Part shown: positions 1,538 to 9,672 of the stretch, piece by piece | Layout: each line of letters begins with the position of its first letter | Position numbering within the stretch: position 1 is the stretch's first letter | Assembly (NCBI GenBank): GCA_944372585.1 | Contig: CALVZQ010000001.1 | Location: forward strand, 6,512-70,511 | From: an uncultured Clostridia bacterium | Lineage (GTDB): Bacteria; Bacillota; Clostridia; Christensenellales; UBA1242 | Reading direction: 5' to 3' | DNA: 64,000 bases | Notes under the pieces: model-generated | What the model saw: the letters and a program-made list of their open reading frames with translations, nothing else | Database searches by the model: none | What the model was told of the DNA's origin: nothing | Program-made: the position numbers and the translations under genes

Positions 1538-3621
1538 AGAAAACTGTTAAGATTCAAGGATTGGATTGTCCTAATTGTGCAAAGGCATTAGAAAAAGAAT
1601 TAAACAAAATTGATGATGTTGACAATGTTGAAATAGATTTTTTAAAATCAGCTTTATCATTTGAAAGCAATGATGTCGACAAAGCATTTTGCAATATTGT
1701 CAAGACCACGAAAACGATTGAACCTGATGTCAAACTTATTGATGAAAACAAAAACAAAGACAAAACCAAATCAAAATCATTAAATCGCAAATTAATCCTA
1801 GATGTATGCTTGCTTTTTGCAGGAATAGTCTTGGGTTTGTGTGTTCTTTTTGTTGAAATGCCTGTTTGGCTGTTTTGGACATTGTTTGTGATCAGTGCTT
1901 TGTTTTTGGGCTACAAAACTTATTTCAAGGCAATTAGGCTGCTCTTCAAAGGAACTGTCAATGAAAATCTCTTGATCACTATTTCAGTGATCGGAGCATC
2001 TGCCATTGGTGAATATATGGAAGGGCTTATGGTTATTGCGCTCTATTCCATAGGCAAAATTTTGGAAGGTGTTGCAGTTGATAAATCCAGAAAATCAATA
2101 GAAAAGCTTACTCAAATGCAACCAGAATTTGCTGTTGTCATTGAAGATGGTGTTGAAAAAAGTGTTGCGCCTTCAGAAGTTTCTGTAAATTCGATAATAA
2201 TTGTCAGACCTGGAGAAAAAATACCCATTGATGGAAAAATTATTGAGGGTGGTGCATCTTTGGATATGCAAAGCTTGACCGGAGAAAGTGTTCCTGTCTT
2301 TGTTGACGTCGGAAAAGAAGTCCTGTCGGGCTCAATTGTCTTAGATGGAGTGCTTAAGATTCAAACAACGAAAGAATATGCGGATAGCACAGTAAAAAAA
2401 ATTATGGACTTAATCGAACATGCTCAAGATAAGAAATCTAAAACAGAAACTGTGATTTCCAAAATTGCTCGTTGGTACACATTGGGTGTTATTGTCTTGG
2501 CTGTCACTGTTTGGGGCATTGTTTGGGCTGTGACAAAAAATTTTGATGAAGCGTTGTATCGTGGACTTATTTTCCTTGTTGTTTCTTGTCCTTGTGCTTT
2601 TGCCATTTCTGTGCCTTTGTCATATTTCTCTGGACTGGGGAATGCATCAAAACACGGAATTTTGATTAAGGGGTCAAACTATTTAGATGCTTGCGCAAAA
2701 ATAAATGTGGTTGCGTTTGACAAAACAGGAACTCTGACAACAGGAAATTTTATAATTCAAAAAGTTGTCAGCCTGGATAGTTCGAAAGATGAAGATGAAA
2801 TTCTTTATTTGGCGAGTTTGGGTGAACAATATTCTTTGCACCCACTGGCAAAAGCCATTGTTTCTGCAAATAAAAAAAAGTTGCAAAAAGTAGATGACCT
2901 AAAAGAGAAAGCGGGGGAAGGTGTTTATTTTAAATTCAATGAAAAGAATTACTTTGTTGGAAGAAGAAGTAAAAATTCAAAAAATACCATTGTTGAGGTC
3001 TTTGAAAATGAAGAGAAAATTGGAGAAATTGAGCTTGATGATGATATAAAGAAGAGTTCCTATATCGCTTGTCAAGAATTGAAATCTCTGGGGGTTAAGA
3101 CTGTTATGTTGTCTGGCGACAACGAACTTAGTGCTGTTCGCGTGGCAAACGAAATTGGAATCGATGAGGTTCATCACAATCTTCTCCCTCAGGAAAAATT
3201 TGAATGGATTGAAAATGCAAAAACAGACAAGAAGAACTTTATTGGATATGTTGGAGATGGAATCAATGATGCCCCTTCACTTATGCTTTCTGATGTTGGA
3301 ATAAGCATGGGGATTAATGGAAGTGGTGCAAGCAAAGAGGTTTCTGATATTATCTTGGTTGATGACGATCCTTCAAAAGTTCCTTCTGCAATAAAAATTT
3401 CAAAATATACAAGAAAAATTGTTTGGGAAAATATAATTCTGTCTGCTGTTGTCAAAATAACTTTCTTGCTTTTGGGAACCTTTGGTGTGACTGGTATGCT
3501 TTTCGCAGTTTTTGCTGATGTGGGAGTTACTGTGCTTGCAATCTTAAACAGCATGAGGGCGTTGAAATATAAACCAAACAAAAAAGCAAAGAATTTTGAA
3601 GAAAAAAATAAAACGCGCTAG
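1534..3621 (+). CDS. cadA: heavy-metal-translocating P1B-type ATPase (Cd/Zn type)
   Basis: HMA domain GLDCPNC, membrane CPC motif (VSCPCAF), DKTGTLT phosphorylation site and VGDGINDAP hinge. Confidence 0.9.
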   Translation: MKKTVKIQGLDCPNCAKALEKELNKIDDVDNVEIDFLKSALSFESNDVDKAFCNIVKTTKTIEPDVKLIDENKNKDKTKSKSLNRKLILDVCLLFAGIVLGLCVLFVEMPVWLFWTLFVISALFLGYKTYFKAIRLLFKGTVNENLLITISVIGASAIGEYMEGLMVIALYSIGKILEGVAVDKSRKSIEKLTQMQPEFAVVIEDGVEKSVAPSEVSVNSIIIVRPGEKIPIDGKIIEGGASLDMQSLTGESVPVFVDVGKEVLSGSIVLDGVLKIQTTKEYADSTVKKIMDLIEHAQDKKSKTETVISKIARWYTLGVIVLAVTVWGIVWAVTKNFDEALYRGLIFLVVSCPCAFAISVPLSYFSGLGNASKHGILIKGSNYLDACAKINVVAFDKTGTLTTGNFIIQKVVSLDSSKDEDEILYLASLGEQYSLHPLAKAIVSANKKKLQKVDDLKEKAGEGVYFKFNEKNYFVGRRSKNSKNTIVEVFENEEKIGEIELDDDIKKSSYIACQELKSLGVKTVMLSGDNELSAVRVANEIGIDEVHHNLLPQEKFEWIENAKTDKKNFIGYVGDGINDAPSLMLSDVGISMGINGSGASKEVSDIILVDDDPSKVPSAIKISKYTRKIVWENIILSAVVKITFLLLGTFGVTGMLFAVFADVGVTVLAILNSMRALKYKPNKKAKNFEEKNKTR

Positions 3622-3648
3622 TCAATAATTTTCAAACTAATATAAAAA

Positions 3649-3679
3649 ATAGTGGTAAAATATTGCCACTATTTTTTTT
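3649..3679. terminator. bidirectional rho-independent terminator
   Basis: Stem atagtgg/ccactat flanked by an A-run and a T-run, between convergent cadA and flavodoxin. Confidence 0.65.
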
Positions 3680-3712
3680 CTATTTTAAAAACTATGAGCT
3701 TTGATGCATGTT

Positions 3713-4186
3713 TTATTTTATATTCTCAATCCATTTTGAAATGACATGCTGTGGAGTCAAAAGATTTTTCCCTTCAAATTCCAGATTTAAACCATCTCTG
3801 ACTGTGCAATCTTTGCAAGCGTTTTCAAAATCTTTAAATGTGTGACCAAGCCAACCGGCATTTGTTGCAAAAGGATATACTGTTTTGTTTTTAAGACTGT
3901 TTTCGTTTAAAAATGTTTTCATTGCAGGAGCAAATGTATACCACCAAACAGGACTGCCCAAGATTATGATATCATACTTTTCCAAATCTAAAGAAATAGG
4001 TTTGATTTTTGGCATAAAACCAGTTTCAACTTCTTTCTTCCCTTGGTCAACAACAGAATTGTAATTTCCGGTATAAGCGTTTTCTGTTTCAATTTCGACA
4101 ATGTCTGCCTTTAATGTTTTTGCAATTTGTTCTGCAATTTTTTTTGTGTTTCCAGTGTAAGAATAATAGACAACAATTGTTTTCAT
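3713..4186 (-). CDS. flavodoxin
   Basis: MKTIVVYYSYTGNTKKIAEQIA FMN-binding N-terminus. 157 aa. Strong RBS aaaaaggag. Confidence 0.8.
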   Translation of the reverse strand: MKTIVVYYSYTGNTKKIAEQIAKTLKADIVEIETENAYTGNYNSVVDQGKKEVETGFMPKIKPISLDLEKYDIIILGSPVWWYTFAPAMKTFLNENSLKNKTVYPFATNAGWLGHTFKDFENACKDCTVRDGLNLEFEGKNLLTPQHVISKWIENIK

Positions 4187-4356
4187 ATTTTTCTCCTTTT
4201 TTTGTTGTTTTAAATCAATCTTCCAGACATTTTTCAGTCAATGTCAGTTTTTTGTTCTCGCAATCAAGTGTGCACTCAATACCATATGGAATTATTGTAA
4301 TAGGACTTGCATGACCAAAGTTTTCTTAATCTTTTTTGGTTTAATCATATTTACTC

Positions 4357-4758
4357 CTAATTATCACGAATTGAACTTAATTTGCTTAGATTTTTTGATA
4401 GTGATATTGTTTCTTTTGAAATTTTTATAAGAATATTGTCCACTGCAACATAATTTTGAAAGTCCAATTCAAAGCCAAGTTTTCTTATTTCATCTTGTAT
4501 GTAATGCAATTGAATACAATGTGGTGATTTATCTACACTTGCAAAGATCATTCTTTTTATTTTCTTTGCTCTAATCATACCCAAAATTTTTGTGATTGCC
4601 ATGTTGATATGAGTTTGTTCCAAACATAAATCAAAAATTGGCAAATTCAATTTTTCAAGCACATCAAAGGCTTTTGGTTGCATTGTCTTCAAACAACTTC
4701 CAACAATCACAATTTCATCAGAACAATCATAAATATTGCTTTTCAACAAATCTTTCAT
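4357..4758 (-). CDS. hypothetical Cys-containing protein
   Basis: 133-aa ORF from the ATG with a GAAGGA RBS (the track uses an upstream GTG at 4773). No assignable motif. Confidence 0.5.
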   Translation of the reverse strand: MKDLLKSNIYDCSDEIVIVGSCLKTMQPKAFDVLEKLNLPIFDLCLEQTHINMAITKILGMIRAKKIKRMIFASVDKSPHCIQLHYIQDEIRKLGFELDFQNYVAVDNILIKISKETISLSKNLSKLSSIRDN

Positions 4759-4802
4759 AAAACATTCCTTCACAAATCAATATACCACAAAACTTTATTT
4801 TG

Positions 4803-5130
4803 TCAAAACAAAAGAGAGAAGTGTTGAATTGGAACTCTATTTTTATTACCTTAATTATTGGATTTGAAAGGATATAAGTGAGTAGAAGTAATCTTTTATT
4901 TGATTACCTCAATCTCTCCGTTGAAAATTTTTAACGGAACATCGGTATTTAAAACAAAATTTGTATCATTAAGAATTTTTTTATATAAGTCAATAAGTTT
5001 AACTGCTTTTTCCTTTGTAAAAGATACATATCCGTCATAATGTTCAAGTAGCTTTGCACCTAAATATTTTCGATATTGATAAATACTGTGGGCATTTACG
5101 TCTTTAAAAAATTTATTGTATTTTAAACAA
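4803..5130. repeat. 328-bp direct repeat, copy 1
   Basis: Matches 7126-7453 at a constant offset of 2323 nt with only a handful of mismatches. Covers the last ~78 codons of the 512-aa gene plus ~93 nt downstream. Confidence 0.9.
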
Positions 5131-6434
5131 ATTATATATTTCAGTCCTACATCTTCACTAATCGTTTTAATAATATTTAATTGTTTTGACAAGTTTTTCT
5201 CTAATTCTAGTTCTTTTACTTTACTGTTAAATTCTTCTTTATAATAATCAATGACATCAGATACTGATGGCAAAGATTTTTGTTTAAAAAATTTTTTTGC
5301 TTGCCAAGAATTAGGGTGTGCTTCATTGACTATTTCTATTAATGTAGTCATTGGATTTTTTGTAGCATCTTTATCTATAAATTTTAAAATGTTTTTATTT
5401 TCTTGTTTTAAGGTATAATAATTTTTCGTGCTGTACTTTAAAGTCACATAAAAGTCTGGGAAATATCTTTTGCCGTTTCTAATAATGAATTTTCGATTTA
5501 TTAAAGGATTTTTTCTTTTTAGATATGATTTTATATTTGGTAAAACAATTTTATCAGCATCATCTTTGAATTCATCTAAGTCGTATATAAAATGCACTTT
5601 ATCAAAATAGCTCAAAAGCATATCAAAAAGACTCTCGTCATTGTTGAAATGATGAATATTTTTTGCTTCTATAGCTTTGTAATATATCAAATTTTTGAAA
5701 TCTTTAGAAACAATATTTTCCCACAGTTTTTTGAAATCGTGTATAACAAATTTCTTTTCAGTTTTGCTAAACTTAAATTCTTTTATTTCCTTTTTTACAT
5801 TTCTTAGACAGGCTTTAAAATCCTTTCTGTAATAAGCATACCTATCATATTTGAAGATGTCCTGTTTATAATAATCTGATCGTGAAGCAAATCGTGCAAA
5901 AAATTCAGGAGACTGTATGGCATAAAAACAAGCAGAACTAGGGTAAGTCGTTACCCAAAAATTATTTTCTTCAAAGTCTTTTATTCCACTTTGAAACGCT
6001 TTATAAACATTATGTTTTTGATATATATTATCAATTTCCTTGCAAAGTTCAATATTGATACATTTTTTGTTTGAGACGCAGTTTTCGATTGTCATTGATG
6101 AATTTGAGCCATGAAATAAAATTTGTGTATTGCCTAAAATACCATTAAAATACTCTTCTACTTTGCCTTTTTGCTTGTAAATATTTTTTACATTTAATTT
6201 TTGAGAAAGTTTTTTAGATAGGTAAGTTTCTTTATCTATATAAATTTCTTTCAGCTCGTCAGGCAAAATGTCTACAACAAAACTAAGTGTAATGATATCA
6301 GCAAAATAGTATCTAAATGAATTCGTAACATTTTTGTTTAAGCACATTCTAAAATCGTTTTGCTTAGCAATATCGGACAAAATACTTTTTATTTGTTCAC
6401 TACAAAATAAATTATTAATATCATTGGTTAGCAT
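4896..6434 (-). CDS. hypothetical protein, 512 aa, very AT-rich
   Basis: Long uninterrupted ORF with a GGGAGAAA RBS. Asn/Lys/Tyr/Phe-rich. No motif I can assign. Confidence 0.7.
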   Translation of the reverse strand: MLTNDINNLFCSEQIKSILSDIAKQNDFRMCLNKNVTNSFRYYFADIITLSFVVDILPDELKEIYIDKETYLSKKLSQKLNVKNIYKQKGKVEEYFNGILGNTQILFHGSNSSMTIENCVSNKKCINIELCKEIDNIYQKHNVYKAFQSGIKDFEENNFWVTTYPSSACFYAIQSPEFFARFASRSDYYKQDIFKYDRYAYYRKDFKACLRNVKKEIKEFKFSKTEKKFVIHDFKKLWENIVSKDFKNLIYYKAIEAKNIHHFNNDESLFDMLLSYFDKVHFIYDLDEFKDDADKIVLPNIKSYLKRKNPLINRKFIIRNGKRYFPDFYVTLKYSTKNYYTLKQENKNILKFIDKDATKNPMTTLIEIVNEAHPNSWQAKKFFKQKSLPSVSDVIDYYKEEFNSKVKELELEKNLSKQLNIIKTISEDVGLKYIICLKYNKFFKDVNAHSIYQYRKYLGAKLLEHYDGYVSFTKEKAVKLIDLYKKILNDTNFVLNTDVPLKIFNGEIEVIK

Positions 6435-6553
6435 TAATTTTCTCCCATATATTATCGGAATTTAATAGTTAAAACGTGGTGCGACAAGTGATAAAGTATC
6501 TGGACCGACTACAAGTCAAAGTCGGTGTTGACTACATACGGTTGCAAGTAAAG

Positions 6554-7078
6554 CTAAGATAAAGTCTTTTTATAAAAATTCGTGTCATCACAACCTTTAT
6601 ACAAAGTATTTTCATATAAAGTGAAATTATTGTTTATCAGAACCTTATTTGAACCCTTATTTTTAATATCACACTGTGCAAATATTTCTTTCATACCAAG
6701 CTCTTTTGCTCTTTCACATAACAATTCTACAAACTTTGTAGCAAAACCCTTTCCACGTTCTGACGGTCTTGTTTTATACCAAATGTTCCCGCTGTGCCTT
6801 TTCCAATAATTGTTAAGTTTAAATCTAAGACCACCAATACAAACGGGTTTGTCATTTACATATAAAATATAATTTTCAGCAGGTAATATATTTCGACTTA
6901 GTGTCAAAGAATACGCTACTCGCATTCTTGCATTGATTTCTTCCACAATCTCTTTTCGTGTTTTTCCATAGTATTCATTAGTTTGACCATATTCATCAGT
7001 TTTTGGTATTTCTTGTAGCATATTGAAAAGTTCATCATTTAGCAAATTTGAACGAAGCTCTTTCAATTGATAATACAT
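6554..7078 (-). CDS. GNAT-family N-acetyltransferase
   Basis: Acetyl-CoA-binding core RPSERGKGFATKFVELLCERAKELG. 174 aa. GGGAGA RBS. Confidence 0.75.
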   Translation of the reverse strand: MYYQLKELRSNLLNDELFNMLQEIPKTDEYGQTNEYYGKTRKEIVEEINARMRVAYSLTLSRNILPAENYILYVNDKPVCIGGLRFKLNNYWKRHSGNIWYKTRPSERGKGFATKFVELLCERAKELGMKEIFAQCDIKNKGSNKVLINNNFTLYENTLYKGCDDTNFYKKTLS

Positions 7079-7125
7079 AAATGTCTCCCATGTCTGATAA
7101 TATTATAACATAATTTATTAGTATT

Positions 7126-7453
7126 TCAAAACAAAAGAGAGAAGTGTTGGATTGGACCTCTATTTTTATTACCTTAATTATTGGATTTGAAAGGATATAA
7201 GAGAGTAGAAGTAATCTTTTATTTGATTACCTCAATCTCTCCGTTGAAAATTTTTAACGGAACATCGGTATTTAAAACAAAATTTGTATCATTAAGAATT
7301 TTTTTATATAAGTCAATAAGTTTAACTGCTTTTTCCTTTGTAAAAGATACATATCCGTCATAATGTTCAAGTAGCTTTGCACCTAAATATTTTCGATATT
7401 GATAAATACTGTGGGCATTTACGTCTTTAAAGAATTTATTATATTTTAAACAA
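7126..7453. repeat. 328-bp direct repeat, copy 2
   Basis: See copy 1. It ends in a 3-nt overlap (caa) with a copy of the flavodoxin 5' end. Confidence 0.9.
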
Positions 7454-7502
7454 TTTTTTTGGTGTTTACAGTGTAAGAATAATAGACAACAATTGTTTTC
7501 AT
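7219..7502 (-). pseudogene. chimeric remnant: flavodoxin 5' fragment joined to a 3' fragment of the 512-aa gene
   Basis: 7451-7502 matches 4135-4186 (flavodoxin RBS-proximal 17 codons, 2 substitutions). 7219-7453 duplicates the C-terminal codons of the 512-aa gene. The flavodoxin frame hits TAA at the junction. Confidence 0.75.
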
Positions 7503-7594
7503 ATATCCTCCTTTCATATTTTTTACAAATTTGTTGCGACAACAATTTTGTTTAGGTTGGCATTTGTTTAAAGGTCAGAATAGAGTAACTTGGT

Positions 7595-8230
7595 TTACAA
7601 ATGATTTATTATTGATTTAACTTCTTCCAACAATTTGGCGATGAGAGAGCCATCAATTGCAGCATGATTAACTTGAAGAGAGACATTAATCCAACGCTCA
7701 CCTTTTTCGTTTGTTTTCACCTTGTCAAAGCTAATATGTGGAACGAAGGAGTTTCGTTGAACATCTTGAGGATGTGTTATATGTGTAAACTCAAACCAAG
7801 GTGTGCAAGATATATAGGCAATCACTTGACTTCTTCTTGCATCAGGAGGCAGTGGCTCAGTGAATGTAGTTTGATTTTGTAATTTGTTTTTGGTTTCATT
7901 GCAAAATGTTTCAATGTCCGAATGGTATACACCATTTATTATTTTGAAAATTTCTTCACCCTGTTTGTTTGCGCAAATGTTGACAAATTCACCATCTTCA
8001 ACAACAATTTTACCTTTGATTGAGCGTATCATGAATTCTTCAAATTTTAAAAGTGCAGAACAAAAGATATGGCACATGCAAAAGTAGAAAGACAGATCTT
8101 TTGATTTTGCAAATTCATAAACCCTAGACACTTTCAAAGGTGTGCAAAGTGAGATTTGCGGGATATCAAATTGATAGTATAAATTAAAAATATCCCTTCG
8201 GTTCCATGATTCTATATCTAATTCTCTCAT
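7595..8230 (-). CDS. chloramphenicol-acetyltransferase-family (CAT-like) protein
   Basis: CAT-fold landmarks: N-terminal WNRRDIFNLY, and C-terminal SLQVNHAAIDG matching the HHAVCDG catalytic box with the His kept. Start moved to the M with an AAAGGAAGG RBS. Confidence 0.7.
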   Translation of the reverse strand: MRELDIESWNRRDIFNLYYQFDIPQISLCTPLKVSRVYEFAKSKDLSFYFCMCHIFCSALLKFEEFMIRSIKGKIVVEDGEFVNICANKQGEEIFKIINGVYHSDIETFCNETKNKLQNQTTFTEPLPPDARRSQVIAYISCTPWFEFTHITHPQDVQRNSFVPHISFDKVKTNEKGERWINVSLQVNHAAIDGSLIAKLLEEVKSIINHL

Positions 8231-8341
8231 AAACCTTCCTTTCGAATTATAATATACTATAAAAGCAAATTTTTTCAAACTATTTTACTAAAACAAAAGT
8301 GATATGGAATTTAATTTATCTTTGCCTTTATTAATCTAATT

Positions 8342-8427
8342 TGGTGCAGAAGATGGGAGTTGAACCCACAAGATGTTGCCATCACAGGTACCTGAAACCT
8401 GCGCGTCTGCCATTCCGCCACTTCTGC
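8342..8427 (-). tRNA. tRNA-Leu (anticodon CAG)
   Basis: Manual cloverleaf: acceptor gcagaag/cttctgc, anticodon stem caggt/acctg with loop ttCAGgt, long variable arm (gatg..catc), T-arm gtggg-ttcaact-cccat, encoded CCA. Confidence 0.9.
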
Positions 8428-8530
8428 ATGTATGGTCTTATTATAATTTTTATGACATCTCTTGTCAAGAATAAAACTTTCTTTCTCTTTTAAAAATATT
8501 TTGAAAATCTTTTTTCTTATCAGAGATTTA

Positions 8531-8539
8531 TGTTATAAT
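8531..8539 (+). promoter_or_regulatory. extended -10 promoter element upstream of prs
   Basis: TGTTATAAT, 20 nt upstream of the AAGGGGTGGG RBS and ATG 8560. Confidence 0.45.
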
Positions 8540-8559
8540 GCTCTCATAAGGGGTGGGAT

Positions 8560-9672
8560 ATGGAAGAAAATGACCTTGGGCTCATTGTTTTGAAAAGTTT
8601 TGCTGACAGAGGAAAAGAAGTTAATGACTACATTTCGGCTTTTAGGGAAGAGAAAGGGAAAAACTATTTGATTGATTATGACAATCCTCGTTTTAGCAAT
8701 GGTGAGGCAAAAGTCAAAATTAATGAAACAGTAAGAAATAAAGACATCTACATTTTGGCCGATATTGGAAATTATTCTTGTACATACAATCTCTATGGAA
8801 ATATCAATCACATGTCGCCAGACGAACATTTTCAAGATGTCATCAGGACAATCTCAGCAATAAGCGGAAAGGCGAAAAGCATCACTGTTTTTTTGCCTTT
8901 GATGTATGCTTCTCGTCAACACAGAAGGAAGGGAAGAGAATCTCTTGATTGTGCCATGGCATTAAAATACTTGGAAAATTTGGGCGCGCACAATGTTTTG
9001 ACCTTTGATGTGCATGATCCAAACATTCAAAATGTTATGCCAACCAGAAGTTTTGACACTATTTCTCCAATTTATTGTGTTTTGAAAGAATTTATACGAA
9101 ACGAATATAAAGAAATTGGAAAAGATAAAATGATTGTGATAAGTCCAGATGCTGGGGCTATTGAAAGAGCAACAATGTATGCCAGCGTTCTCGGGCTTGA
9201 TTTGGGACTTTTCTACAAAAGAAGGGATTATTCAATTGTTGTTAATGGGAAAAATCCAATCTTGCAACACGATTATATCGGAAATGATGTTAAAGACAAA
9301 AACATCTTGATTGTCGATGACATGATTGCCTCTGGTGAAAGTGTCATTGATATAATCAAACAACTCAAAGCAAGAGGGTGTGCAAAGGTTTATGTGGTCA
9401 CAACTTTTGCATTTTTCACAGAAGGTGTTGCCAAATTCAACAAACTTTATGAAGAAGGAAATTTGACAAGTGTCTACAGCACAAACGCGTCATATTTGAG
9501 CGATGACGTGAAGAATGCACCTTGGTTTTGTGAAGTGTCACTGACAAAATTTATTGCCAAAATCATCATGACATTGAATGAAGGGAAAAGCATTAGCGAA
9601 TATATTTCATCAACTGAGAAAATTAAAAAATTATATAAAAAATATTCAAACAAATTAAAAAAGAATGATTGA
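8560..9672 (+). CDS. prs: ribose-phosphate pyrophosphokinase (long form)
   Basis: PRPP synthetase landmarks: NPRFSNGEAKVKINETVRNKDIYI, RQHRR flexible loop, PRPP-binding IVDDMIASGES. Confidence 0.8.
   Translation: MEENDLGLIVLKSFADRGKEVNDYISAFREEKGKNYLIDYDNPRFSNGEAKVKINETVRNKDIYILADIGNYSCTYNLYGNINHMSPDEHFQDVIRTISAISGKAKSITVFLPLMYASRQHRRKGRESLDCAMALKYLENLGAHNVLTFDVHDPNIQNVMPTRSFDTISPIYCVLKEFIRNEYKEIGKDKMIVISPDAGAIERATMYASVLGLDLGLFYKRRDYSIVVNGKNPILQHDYIGNDVKDKNILIVDDMIASGESVIDIIKQLKARGCAKVYVVTTFAFFTEGVAKFNKLYEEGNLTSVYSTNASYLSDDVKNAPWFCEVSLTKFIAKIIMTLNEGKSISEYISSTEKIKKLYKKYSNKLKKND

What the first reader, a model, noticed from the sequence alone, without database searches (positions are those of the whole stretch)
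4135..8427. AT-rich accessory islet next to tRNA-Leu with a 328-bp direct repeat and a flavodoxin-5'-end rearrangement scar
Seen in the sequence: 4803-5130 and 7126-7453 are near-identical (constant offset 2323 nt, a handful of mismatches). They bracket a cassette made of the 512-aa unknown gene and a GNAT acetyltransferase. Copy 2 is joined, through a 3-nt overlap (caa), to 7451-7502. That stretch repeats 4135-4186, the first 17 codons of flavodoxin, with 2 substitutions. The order is repeat-then-flavodoxin-5', the opposite of the intact locus (flavodoxin-5' ... repeat). That is the junction expected from tandem duplication or circularisation of 4135-5130. A CAT-like acetyltransferase (7595-8230) and tRNA-Leu(CAG) (8342-8427) follow. 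Established knowledge: tRNA genes are frequent island insertion points. Inference: this is a recently rearranged, horizontally acquired acetyltransferase cassette region. No integrase or transposase is present, so the mechanism is open. Homologous recombination between the repeats would excise a 2.3-kb circle.
Basis: partly seen in the sequence, partly recalled or inferred. Interest (0 to 1): 0.55.

Follow-up and report, generated by a model that had tools for sequence, protein, structure and literature searches.

The report
Recombination scar in a tRNA-Leu hotspot
The repeats are real: a 3.3-kb block of foreign, AT-rich genes sits inside the start of a conserved flavodoxin gene in an uncultured gut Clostridia bacterium, and it is built from pieces of small mobile elements that target tRNA-Leu genes, which makes it an instructive but ordinary recombination scar.

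Summary
R1 (4803-5130) and R2 (7126-7453) differ at 5 of 328 positions. H1 (4135-4188) and H2 (7451-7504) differ at 2 of 54. R2 and H2 meet at a 3-nt 'caa' overlap.

Sister species carry tRNA-Leu, CAT, flavodoxin and ATPase in that order with nothing between them. CAT and flavodoxin are therefore ancestral core genes with core-like GC. H2 plus its upstream 90 nt is the original flavodoxin start.

The foreign part is 4189-7450 (27% GC). It holds a truncated 512-aa gene tail, the GNAT gene, the full 512-aa gene and the 138-aa gene. Recombination between H1 and H2 would restore the ancestral locus exactly.

The GNAT gene is followed at 6477-6553 by a degenerate tRNA 3' end ('att''). The same end closes a family of 1.3-4.2-kb elements that sit at tRNA-Leu genes. 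Some of them encode a large serine recombinase. Other strains of the same species carry tRNA-Leu | 2H-GNAT-att' | 512-138aa-flavodoxin and lack CAT.

My best reading is that the window is a hybrid of two structural alleles of this hotspot. It needs one illegitimate joint (caa) plus a duplicated or accreted 512-gene module. The order of events is unresolved, and this arrangement comes from one sample only.

The parts
8342..8427 (-). tRNA-Leu(CAG). Its 3' end ...CTTCTGCACCA (GCACCA at 8347-8342) is the attachment point used by the element family.
   Evidence: ARAGORN; Rfam tRNA at 51 bits. Elements start directly after GCACCA in L053, L055 and L070-L077.
7595..8230 (-). CAT-like O-acetyltransferase. 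It is an ancestral core gene of this clade, not part of the insert.
   Evidence: Pfam CAT at 67 bits. NCBIfam CatA-type models score far below their cut-offs. The gene sits at the same position in L012/L013 and L062-L069. GC is 33.8%.
7505..7594 (-). up1: the ancestral CAT-flavodoxin intergenic region with the flavodoxin RBS (GGAGGA).
   Evidence: It aligns with the flavodoxin upstream region of L012/L013. Identity is 68-72%, and the local score beats 2000 of 2000 shuffles against L012 and all but 1 of 2000 against L013.
7451..7504 (-). H2: the orphaned original first 17 codons of flavodoxin (plus 2 nt upstream). It now reads MKTIVVYYSYTVNTKKIV* and is a pseudogene stub.
   Evidence: The G>T change (Gly>Val) is unique to H2. 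Its ACC codon is shared with the type B strains.
7126..7453 (-). R2: a truncated copy of the last 78 codons of the 512-aa gene (7219-7453) plus the 93-nt downstream module ds' (7126-7218). It is joined to H2 at 'caa' (7451-7453).
7079..7129 (-). GNAT promoter-like site (TTGAAA, 16 nt, TATAAT, with TG). Its -35 box overlaps the end of R2.
   Evidence: Consensus scan, 11 of 12 positions. This is a pattern match only.
6554..7078 (-). GNAT N-acetyltransferase (174 aa). The 3' 440 nt are 89.7% identical to the GNAT fragment carried by a multi-copy 1.75-kb tRNA-Leu element.
   Evidence: Pfam Acetyltransf_3 and Acetyltransf_1.
6477..6553 (-). att': a degenerate copy of a tRNA 3' end (...GGTCCAGATACTTTATCACTTGTCGCACCA). 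It is the conserved right end of the tRNA-Leu element family. GCACCA lies at 6482-6477.
   Evidence: It is identical or nearly identical to the right ends of L070-L079, L055 and L080-L091. It is the only other GCACCA on this strand in 3600-8600 and the only match in the window with 6 or fewer mismatches.
4896..6434 (-). 512-aa protein of unknown function. It belongs to an orphan family of 24 clusters and is intact here.
   Evidence: No hit in Pfam, NCBIfam or PADLOC. AF2 pLDDT 86 with no structural neighbour.
4803..5130 (-). R1: the 3' end of the 512-aa gene (4896-5130) plus the ds module (4803-4895). ds-like sequence also lies upstream of att' in related elements.
4779..4806 (-). Promoter-like site for the 138-aa gene (TTGACA, 16 nt, TATATT, with TG). 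Its -35 box overlaps the end of R1.
   Evidence: This is a pattern match only.
4357..4773 (-). 138-aa ORF (133 aa from the ATG at 4758), AF_0155-like (PF27217 in precomputed annotation). A homologue is the last gene before att' in the serine-recombinase element of L084.
   Evidence: L084 region: 81% nt identity over 500 nt; 135-aa ORF.
4189..4356 (-). up2: the present flavodoxin upstream region. The proximal ~64 nt (4189-4252) look like a strongly diverged copy of the ancestral intergenic region. The distal part is of unknown origin.
   Evidence: BLAST extends the L012 alignment to 4252. Local score 16 against 9.8 +/- 1.6, reached by 8 of 2000 shuffles. No att' remnant was found.
4135..4188 (-). 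H1: the first 17 codons (plus 2 nt upstream) of the intact flavodoxin gene. It is the partner of H2.
3713..4186 (-). Intact flavodoxin gene (157 aa). It is a core gene adjacent to the P-type ATPase, as in the sister species.
   Evidence: Pfam Flavodoxin_4 at 78 bits.

Best explanation
The stretch between tRNA-Leu(CAG) and flavodoxin is a recombination hotspot that exists as alternative structural alleles. The window carries a hybrid of two of them.

The ancestral allele is tRNA-Leu | CAT - up1 - flavodoxin. The derived allele, common in other strains of the species, is tRNA-Leu | [2H phosphoesterase - ds'' - GNAT - att'] | 512 - ds - 138aa - up2 - flavodoxin. Its modules come from small integrative elements that insert directly after the CCA end of tRNA-Leu genes. 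These elements end in a degenerate tRNA 3' end (att'). They are moved by a large serine recombinase that autonomous family members encode, and they pile up in tandem.

In the window's lineage, DNA carrying two copies of the 512-ds module was joined to an ancestral-type chromosome. The two copies arose either by unequal exchange between the two ds copies or by accretion of two sibling elements. One end recombined by homology in flavodoxin. The other end joined illegitimately, at a 3-nt microhomology (caa), between codon 434 of the upstream 512 copy and codon 17 of the resident flavodoxin. The same product would arise if a circularised fragment integrated by a single crossover in the first 52 nt of flavodoxin.

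The result keeps an intact flavodoxin behind a new upstream region. It strands the old flavodoxin start (H2) next to CAT and leaves direct repeats H (54 bp) and R (328 bp).

Shown: the anatomy, the ancestral state, the allele types, and the att' link to the element family. Inferred: the order and mechanism of the events.
For: 1. Empty site. L012, L013 and L062-L069 have tRNA-Leu, CAT, flavodoxin and ATPase contiguous. The window's up1+H2 is the orthologous flavodoxin start and up2 is not. Deleting between H1 and H2 restores this arrangement exactly.
2. Composition. The insert is 27.3% GC against 33-35% for CAT, flavodoxin and the flanks.
3. The derived allele is found in at least 10 contigs from other samples (L052-L061, L092). 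It has the same GNAT-att'-512-ds-138aa-up2-flavodoxin backbone at 94-98% identity and lacks CAT, H2 and the 512 fragment.
4. Both H copies lie one change from the species consensus and about 5 changes from the sister species. Both alleles therefore belong to this species.
5. R1 and R2 share at least 13 differences from the type B copy. At 5109 and 5118 R2 keeps the B state. The R duplication is therefore younger than the divergence between the window and the B strains.
6. The end of R (4803/7126) falls in an ~18-nt run (CTTCTCTCTTTTGTTTTGA) inside the ~35-nt ds core. That core already exists twice in type B, after the 512 gene and before GNAT.
7. att' at 6477-6553 is the conserved right end of elements that start directly after tRNA-Leu GCACCA. 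Six metagenome loci with att' carry a large serine recombinase. L084 has ds-138aa-att'. L088 has att' directly upstream of CAT-flavodoxin. L055 shows tandem accretion, att' | 2H...GNAT-att' | 512.
8. One-sided homologous plus illegitimate recombination, and single crossover of circularised fragments that duplicates part of the homologous locus, are both documented experimentally (PMC3240628).
9. A ComEC competence gene lies about 9 kb from the locus.
Against: - The hybrid arrangement is seen only in the window's own lineage: ENA scaffold_320 plus one further contig that carries identical proteins and was not displayed. No same-species strain with the pure ancestral allele was found. No donor with two 512 copies was found either.
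- The junction 41-mer is absent from JGI metagenomes.
- H identity (96%) contrasts sharply with about 52% identity between up1 and the proximal part of up2. Homology ends almost exactly at the start codon. A plain duplication does not predict this, and it requires long-diverged alleles with a homogenised coding region.
- The informative sites are few: 2 in H and 5 in R.
- Natural transformation is not demonstrated for this organism.
Confidence: 0.5

Rival explanations
1. Ancestral-intermediate model. The window's arrangement arose once, by insertion of a 3.26-kb fragment into flavodoxin codon 17/18 of the ancestral allele, with a 54-bp target duplication. It is the ancestor of the common type B allele. 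Type B then arose by loss of CAT-up1-H2-512C', for example by att x att' excision followed by integration of the 2H-GNAT element. R1 and R2 stay similar through gene conversion.
For: The window keeps two ancestral features that type B lacks: CAT next to the tRNA, and flavodoxin next to the ATPase without the 2-kb TMEM164 insert. att x att' deletion in the window would give exactly the backbone found in type B. The window's CAT is as diverged from sister-species CATs (~88-90% aa) as vertical descent predicts.
Against: R1 and R2 differ by 1.5%, while the same segment differs by ~6% between the window and type B. Gene conversion is therefore needed. The inserted fragment already ends in a flavodoxin-type upstream remnant plus H1. 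This implies a donor that already had 138aa-up2-flavodoxin, so a type-B-like backbone predates the event.
Confidence: 0.15
2. Captured-host-DNA element. The 1865-bp segment between the tRNA-Leu end (8341) and att' (6477) is a non-autonomous element of the tRNA-Leu family. Its cargo (CAT, up1, flavodoxin stub, 512 tail) was picked up by imprecise circularisation from a chromosome of the type tRNA | ...512-ds-GNAT-att' | CAT-flavodoxin. It was then re-inserted at the tRNA-Leu of a chromosome carrying 512-ds-138aa-flavodoxin.
For: The segment is bounded by the same GCACCA repeats as the family members. An att' directly followed by CAT-flavodoxin exists in a sister species (L088). Cargo is highly variable in the family.
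Against: The site on such a circle would be an attR-type hybrid, which large serine recombinases do not normally recombine with attB (established knowledge of this enzyme class). The model also needs a second, nearly identical 512 gene in the donor. The tRNA-CAT joint is indistinguishable from the native one.
Confidence: 0.15
3. A horizontally acquired acetyltransferase islet at tRNA-Leu underwent a recent intragenomic tandem duplication or circularisation of 4135-5130.
For: The order at the joint (flavodoxin 5' followed by the 512 tail) is what a head-to-tail junction of 4135-5130 gives.
Against: A tandem duplication of that segment would place the joint downstream of the full 512 gene and would duplicate the 138-aa gene and up2. 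Neither is seen. CAT is core rather than acquired, and H2 lies in its ancestral context.
Confidence: 0.08
4. Assembly artefact. The scaffold concatenates two co-occurring strain variants.
For: The source is a short-read metagenome scaffold. The arrangement comes from one sample only. R divergence (1.5%) resembles strain-level divergence (98.6% for L003). The Logan unitig L051 stops exactly where H1 and H2 start to share 30-mers. That only shows both contexts exist in those reads.
Against: The R2|H2 joint has 3 nt of overlap, and the switch from ds to the GNAT promoter has about 18 nt. Both are below any assembly k, so reads must contain them. There is no N. A second contig carrying identical proteins is indexed but was not displayed, and whether it is an independent assembly is not known.
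Confidence: 0.07

Closest known systems
Homology-facilitated illegitimate recombination, and single-crossover integration of circularised fragments (described for Acinetobacter, S. pneumoniae, P. stutzeri and E. coli; PMC3240628)
   Same: Foreign DNA is attached to a chromosome by homology at one side and by a joint with only a few nt of microhomology at the other. The single-crossover variant leaves a direct duplication of part of the homologous gene, as H1/H2 do here.
   Different: Nothing was observed experimentally here. The homologous segment that ended up duplicated is only ~52 nt. The incoming DNA was itself an alternative allele of the same locus, not unrelated DNA.
Tandem accretion of integrative elements and their non-autonomous derivatives (CIME-type elements) at tRNA or other att sites, e.g. 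the ICESt1/CIME family in Streptococcus (recalled from memory)
   Same: Modules are bounded by repeated att-like ends next to a tRNA gene. Short recombinase-less derivatives exist beside autonomous elements. Tandem arrays occur (L055). Decayed remnants are present.
   Different: The recombinase here is a large serine recombinase, not a tyrosine integrase. The elements are very small (1.3-4.2 kb). In the window no recombinase is present, and the array is interrupted by native host genes (CAT, flavodoxin stub).
Genomic islets at tRNA genes
   Same: Variable, AT-rich, strain-specific content lies directly 3' of a tRNA gene. The sister species L013/L064 has a 5.9-kb serine-recombinase island at the same tRNA, flanked by a ~20-nt repeat.
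   Different: In the window the gene next to the tRNA (CAT) is native. The foreign block lies 0.9 kb away, inside a gene.
Integron gene cassettes
   Same: Several short, same-orientation, unrelated genes are each followed by a conserved ~90-nt module.
   Different: There is no IntI integrase and no attC-type imperfect palindrome was identified. Each gene has its own promoter-like site. I do not file it here.

Membership tests
tRNA-targeting integrative element with a large serine recombinase (the family defined here by att') | Left end directly after the 3' CCA end of a tRNA-Leu gene | tested here: met
   The segment 8341-6477 starts after GCACCA of tRNA-Leu(CAG). However, the first 0.9 kb (CAT-up1) is native sequence, as in sister species.
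tRNA-targeting integrative element with a large serine recombinase (the family defined here by att') | Right end is the conserved degenerate tRNA 3' end ...GATACTTTATCACTTGTCGCACCA | tested here: met
   Exact 24-mer at 6500-6477 on the minus strand. The 77-nt region aligns with L084, L055 and L070-L079.
tRNA-targeting integrative element with a large serine recombinase (the family defined here by att') | Encodes a large serine recombinase (PF00239 + PF07508 + PF13408) | tested here: not met
   No such ORF lies in 3600-8600. It is present in relatives L082, L084, L086, L087, L089 and L090. The window holds at most a non-autonomous remnant.
tRNA-targeting integrative element with a large serine recombinase (the family defined here by att') | Excises or integrates by site-specific recombination at GCACCA | not testable with these tools
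   This is inferred only from identical element ends in different contexts.
Product of homology-facilitated illegitimate recombination or single-crossover integration | One novel joint with microhomology of a few nt between unrelated sequences | tested here: met
   The R2|H2 joint shares only caa.
Product of homology-facilitated illegitimate recombination or single-crossover integration | The other side merges into the recipient through a homologous segment, and removing the insert restores the recipient locus | tested here: met
   H1 is continuous with intact flavodoxin. Deletion between H1 and H2 gives the L012/L062 arrangement.
Product of homology-facilitated illegitimate recombination or single-crossover integration | An identifiable donor arrangement exists | tested here: inconclusive
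   Type B strains supply GNAT-att'-512-ds-138aa-up2-flavodoxin. No donor was found with a 512 copy upstream of GNAT.
Simple tandem duplication | Two adjacent copies of one segment with a single head-to-tail joint | tested here: not met
   The R and H repeats have different periods (2323 and 3316). The 138-aa gene and up2 are single-copy.
Type A chloramphenicol acetyltransferase (CatA) | Score above the NCBIfam equivalog cut-off | tested here: not met
   75 bits against a cut-off of 270. The Pfam CAT fold family is met at 67 bits against 23.5. The NHAAIDG motif keeps the catalytic His. The gene is best called a CAT-like O-acetyltransferase of unknown substrate.
Integron cassette array | IntI integrase and attC sites | tested here: not met
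   No integrase ORF. The ds module is shared with serine-recombinase elements instead.

The most novel reading that the evidence does not exclude
The window preserves an intermediate in which native chromosomal genes (CAT and the flavodoxin start) have become enclosed between a tRNA-Leu attachment site and an element-type att' end. This would show how a family of very small (1.3-4.2 kb) serine-recombinase elements, which target several tRNA-Leu isoacceptors and are 99.6% identical across different gut Clostridia genomes, capture and shuffle host genes as promoter-gene-terminator modules. The 512-aa orphan protein would be one such cargo.
Probability: 0.15. Interest if true: 0.55.

Novelty: new member of a known kind. 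Interest (0 to 1): 0.3.

Why it matters
The finding itself is modest. It is a well-documented natural example of a one-sided illegitimate recombination scar in which the empty site, the alternative allele and the hybrid are all available from uncultured gut bacteria.

It corrects the annotation: CAT and flavodoxin are core genes, while GNAT, the 512-aa gene and the 138-aa gene are variable.

It also predicts three alternative deletions that would interconvert the alleles: H x H (3316 bp), R x R (2323 bp) and att x att' (1865 bp).

The by-product may be more useful than the scar. It is a family of miniature tRNA-Leu-targeting serine-recombinase elements, together with non-autonomous derivatives that appear to be spreading. 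Small site-specific large serine recombinases with defined tRNA targets are of practical interest as genome-engineering tools.

Tried and rejected
- A decayed att' after the 138-aa gene, which would make 512-ds-138aa a complete older element: local alignment of up2 against att' of the window, L084 and L070 is no better than shuffles. Rejected.
- ds or the 6435-6553 spacer as a dispersed repeat in the window: no further copies.
- An RNA gene or riboswitch in the GC-richer spacer 6435-6553: Rfam finds only the tRNA.
- 133-aa protein against PDB: nothing significant.
- Independent copies of the R2|H2 joint: the 41-mer is absent from JGI metagenomes. Exact-protein look-ups found the window's arrangement only in its own lineage.
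- A same-species strain with the pure ancestral allele: the closest flavodoxin variant (P0029, L092) is type B.
- Plasmid or phage origin of the insert: no blastn match. att' is absent from viral contigs.
- A crossover position inside the ds core, inferred from R2 against the type B ds'': the 1-2 informative sites conflict, so only the boundary coincidence is used.
- Serine-recombinase action at the caa joint: flavodoxin codons 14-16 contain CACCAAA, resembling the tRNA end, but the partner site in the 512 gene has no such motif and the H duplication is incompatible with conservative site-specific recombination. I treat the resemblance as coincidence.

Full report
**Observation**

I read 3600-9000, ran the repeat finder and compared the sequence with itself at fixed offsets.

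- R1 (4803-5130) and R2 (7126-7453) are co-linear at offset 2323. They have 5 mismatches in 328 nt, at 4827, 4834, 4879, 5109 and 5118.
- H1 (4135-4188) and H2 (7451-7504) are co-linear at offset 3316, with 2 mismatches in 54 nt. Homology ends 2 nt upstream of the flavodoxin ATG.
- R2 and H2 overlap by caa (7451-7453).
- All genes are on the minus strand: tRNA-Leu(CAG) 8427-8342, CAT-like 8230-7595, GNAT 7078-6554, the 512-aa ORF 6434-4896, the 138-aa ORF 4773-4357 and flavodoxin 4186-3713.
- R1 is the last 78 codons of the 512-aa gene plus 93 nt downstream ('ds'). R2 is a truncated second copy of that stretch.
- The stub H2 reads MKTIVVYYSYTVNTKKIV followed by a stop.
- The AT-rich part is 4189-7450 (27.3% GC). 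CAT (33.8%) and flavodoxin (32.5%) match the window average of 34.6%.

**Source and reliability**

The window is 100% identical to ENA metagenome scaffold ERZ28614938 ONAT22-1_SAMEA6814653 scaffold_320. A second contig that carries the identical proteins is indexed but was not displayed.

There is no N in the window. The R2|H2 joint has 3 nt of overlap, which is too short for a k-mer mis-join.

A Logan unitig (L051, run ERR4096376) is 100% identical to 8412-7475. It stops exactly where the last 30-mer becomes shared by H1 and H2. Both flavodoxin-start contexts are therefore present in those reads.

The joint itself was not found elsewhere. Read-level proof is still missing.

**The ancestral state**

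A scan of one genome per species with the neighbouring prs protein gave two sister species, L012 and L013, at about 85% nt identity. In both, ATPase, flavodoxin, CAT, tRNA-Leu(CAG) and prs are contiguous.

Exact-protein look-ups of the sister-species CAT (P0058) show the same order in many assemblies. The content between tRNA-Leu and CAT varies: nothing, a DUF4932 gene, or a 5.9-kb island with a large serine recombinase.

Alignment A1 shows that the window's 7505-7594 (up1) and H2 are the orthologue of the sister species' flavodoxin upstream region and start. The region now upstream of the intact gene (up2, 4189-4356) is not.

It follows that CAT and flavodoxin are core genes. The foreign block is 4189-7450, and it sits inside the first 18 codons of flavodoxin. 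Deleting between H1 and H2 would restore the ancestral locus exactly.

**A second allele in the same species**

The flavodoxin 90% cluster led to at least 10 contigs from other samples (L052-L061, L092). They are 94-99% identical to the window in the flanks.

Their order is tRNA-Leu | 168-aa 2H-phosphoesterase-like gene - ds'' - GNAT - spacer - 512 - ds - 138aa - up2 - flavodoxin - (46 aa, 2 x TMEM164) - ATPase. They lack CAT, H2 and the 512 tail.

Identity to the window by segment:

| Segment | Identity to window |
|---|---|
| GNAT | 98.5% |
| 512 N-terminal part | 95-98% |
| 512 C-terminal part | 94% |
| ds | 93.5% |
| 138aa | 95% |
| up2 | 98% |
| flavodoxin | 97% |

The 47 nt beyond tRNA-Leu in the 98.6%-identical strain L003 are of this type. 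In many of these strains the 512-aa gene is split into 112+399 aa or 257+125 aa.

**The link to a mobile element family**

The GNAT 90% cluster has 61 members. One of them is named from Candidatus Onthoplasma faecigallinarum, Christensenellaceae.

Its commonest member (130 aa) lies in a ~1.75-kb segment that is 99.6% identical in at least 9 different contexts. In each context the segment begins directly after the CCA end of a tRNA-Leu gene, with anticodon TAA, AAG or CAG. It ends in ...GGTTCGGATACTTTATCACTTGTCGCACCA, a degenerate tRNA 3' end, after which unrelated host sequence starts.

The window has the same end ('att'') at 6553-6477, 42 nt upstream of the 512-aa start codon. On this strand GCACCA occurs in 3600-8600 only there and at the tRNA end.

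A search of metagenome contigs with the att' 24-mer gave 12 loci:

- Six have a large serine recombinase (PF00239, PF07508, PF13408) between a tRNA-Leu and att', giving elements of 3.3-4.2 kb.
- L085 and L091 are 1.3-kb versions without a recombinase.
- L084 carries ds and a homologue of the 138-aa gene (81% nt identity) as the last gene before att'.
- Several loci have a ds-like sequence directly upstream of att'.
- L088, from a sister species, has att' directly followed by CAT-flavodoxin.
- In the type B strain L055, another att'-terminated module (with a radical-SAM gene) precedes the 2H-GNAT-att' module in place of the tRNA end. This is tandem accretion.

GNAT-att', ds and the 138-aa gene are therefore parts of this element family. 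The tRNA-Leu site in this species is an active accretion site.

**Dating clues**

At the two H mismatches, H1 and H2 each differ by one change from the sequence shared by all type B strains (GGA...ACC). The sister species differ at about 5 positions. Both flavodoxin starts therefore belong to this species.

R1 and R2 share at least 13 differences from the type B copy. At 5109 and 5118 R2 keeps the B state and R1 is derived. The R duplication is therefore younger than the split between the window's cassette and the sampled B cassettes.

The R homology ends (4803/7126) in an ~18-nt run, CTTCTCTCTTTTGTTTTGA, that R1, R2 and the type B ds'' all share. This run lies inside the ~35-nt ds core that already exists twice in type B, after the 512 gene and before GNAT. 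It overlaps the -35 boxes of promoter-like sites for the 138-aa gene and GNAT.

The proximal ~64 nt of up2 appear to be a strongly diverged copy of the ancestral CAT-flavodoxin spacer. BLAST extends the L012 alignment to 4252. The local score is 16 against 9.8 +/- 1.6, reached by 8 of 2000 shuffles.

up1 and up2 themselves are not detectably similar. This is in sharp contrast with 96% identity in H, and I cannot fully explain it.

**Most likely history**

The window is a hybrid of the ancestral allele (CAT-up1-flavodoxin) and a type-B-like allele that carried two 512-ds modules. The two modules arose either by unequal exchange between ds and ds'', which would produce the 2323-bp unit, or by accretion of two sibling elements.

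Homology in flavodoxin joined the two alleles on one side. An illegitimate caa joint between 512 codon 434 and flavodoxin codon 17 joined them on the other. Integration of a circularised fragment by a single crossover in the flavodoxin start gives the same product.

Both routes are documented experimentally, including duplication of part of the homologous locus (PMC3240628). I give this reading about 0.5.

The rivals are:

- The window's arrangement is the ancestor of type B, with gene conversion in R (0.15).
- Segment 8341-6477 is a non-autonomous element that captured host DNA (0.15).
Its geometry does not fit, because the 138-aa gene and up2 are single-copy and the joint is upstream of GNAT.
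- Assembly artefact (0.07).

**Cargo**

The CAT-like protein matches Pfam CAT but is far below the CatA equivalog cut-offs. The GNAT is of the Acetyltransf_3 type.

The 512-aa protein belongs to an orphan family of 24 clusters among 5.8 billion proteins. Its homologues sit in unrelated contexts. It has no family or defence-system match. A confident AF2 model (pLDDT 86.3, pTM 0.79) has no significant structural neighbour in PDB or BFVD.

The insert has no similarity to known plasmids or phages.

**Verdict**

The finding is real and was mostly read correctly at the sequence level. Its biology is different from what was proposed. It is not an acetyltransferase islet inserted at a tRNA. It is a scar where the native CAT-flavodoxin locus was fused to an array of modules from small tRNA-Leu-targeting serine-recombinase elements.

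It is a new instance of known processes. Interest is low to moderate. The element family seen in passing is the more promising lead.

Noticed in passing
L070-L079 (e.g. L070 6721-8470; GCA_018715225.1 DVMB01000044.1 = L072); homologous to window 6993-6477: A ~1.75-kb element is 99.6% identical in at least 9 different contexts, and its GNAT protein (P0043) is indexed in 193 assembly blocks. It lies directly after tRNA-Leu genes with anticodons TAA, AAG or CAG and ends in a degenerate tRNA 3' end (GCACCA repeat). It carries a 193-aa ORF with no Pfam hit, an antisense DDE_Tnp_1_6 remnant and an N-truncated GNAT, and it has no recombinase. It looks like a non-autonomous element that is currently spreading.
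   Followed up: partly
L084 (element ~4.2 kb; recombinase at L084 12064-13689), L082, L086, L087, L089, L090: Compact 3.3-4.2-kb elements lie between a tRNA-Leu(CAG) gene and the same att' end. They encode a large serine recombinase (MKKAVIYARYSSDSQSEQSIDGQLRVC...) that reads towards the tRNA. In L084 the ORF runs into the tRNA gene in antisense.
   Followed up: partly
L084, reverse-complement coordinates 5262-5460: About 165 nt after att' there is a second partial tRNA-Leu 3' end (21 nt identical to the tRNA). It is followed by the same downstream sequence that follows att'. This may be a displaced attB remnant or a second tiny module.
   Followed up: no
L013 3846-9769; L064: The sister species has a 5.9-kb island between tRNA-Leu(CAG) and CAT. 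It carries a different 526-aa large serine recombinase and an RNase_T/BRCT protein. It is flanked by a ~20-nt direct repeat equal to window 8331-8350 (the last 9 nt of the tRNA plus 11 nt).
   Followed up: partly
L055 1060-1260: In one type B strain the 2H-GNAT-att' module is preceded by another att'-terminated module with a radical-SAM gene, not by the tRNA. This is tandem accretion of elements at the locus.
   Followed up: yes
window 3640-3671 versus L052-L061: Type B strains have a ~2-kb insertion (a 46-aa ORF and two TMEM164-family genes) between flavodoxin and the P-type ATPase. It is absent from the window and from the sister species.
   Followed up: no
L052, L054, L056-L058 (512-aa gene): In many type B strains the 512-aa gene is split (112+399 aa; 112+257+125 aa), which suggests ongoing pseudogenisation. 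It is intact in the window, L053 and L055.
   Followed up: no
window 4896-6434: The 512-aa protein gives a confident AlphaFold model (pLDDT 86, pTM 0.79) with no significant Foldseek neighbour in PDB or BFVD. The weak top hits are aminoglycoside nucleotidyltransferases (probability 0.25). It may be a new fold or a very distant nucleotidyltransferase relative.
   Followed up: partly
window 3713-4186; P0025-P0030: Flavodoxin alleles within the species are mosaics of five variable residues (37, 72-73, 95, 102, 146). This indicates frequent homologous recombination across this locus.
   Followed up: no
window 4140-4152 / 7456-7468: Flavodoxin codons 14-16 (AAC ACC AAA in H2 and in type B) contain CACCAAA, the same heptamer as the tRNA-Leu end plus its downstream bases. 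It lies 8-10 nt from the caa joint, and H1 has lost it (ACA). This is probably coincidence.
   Followed up: no
L005 / L006: The closest 512-aa homologue outside the species (61% identity) lies about 2 kb upstream of comEC-holA. Those same neighbours lie about 7 kb from the window's copy, but in a different order and on the other strand.
   Followed up: no
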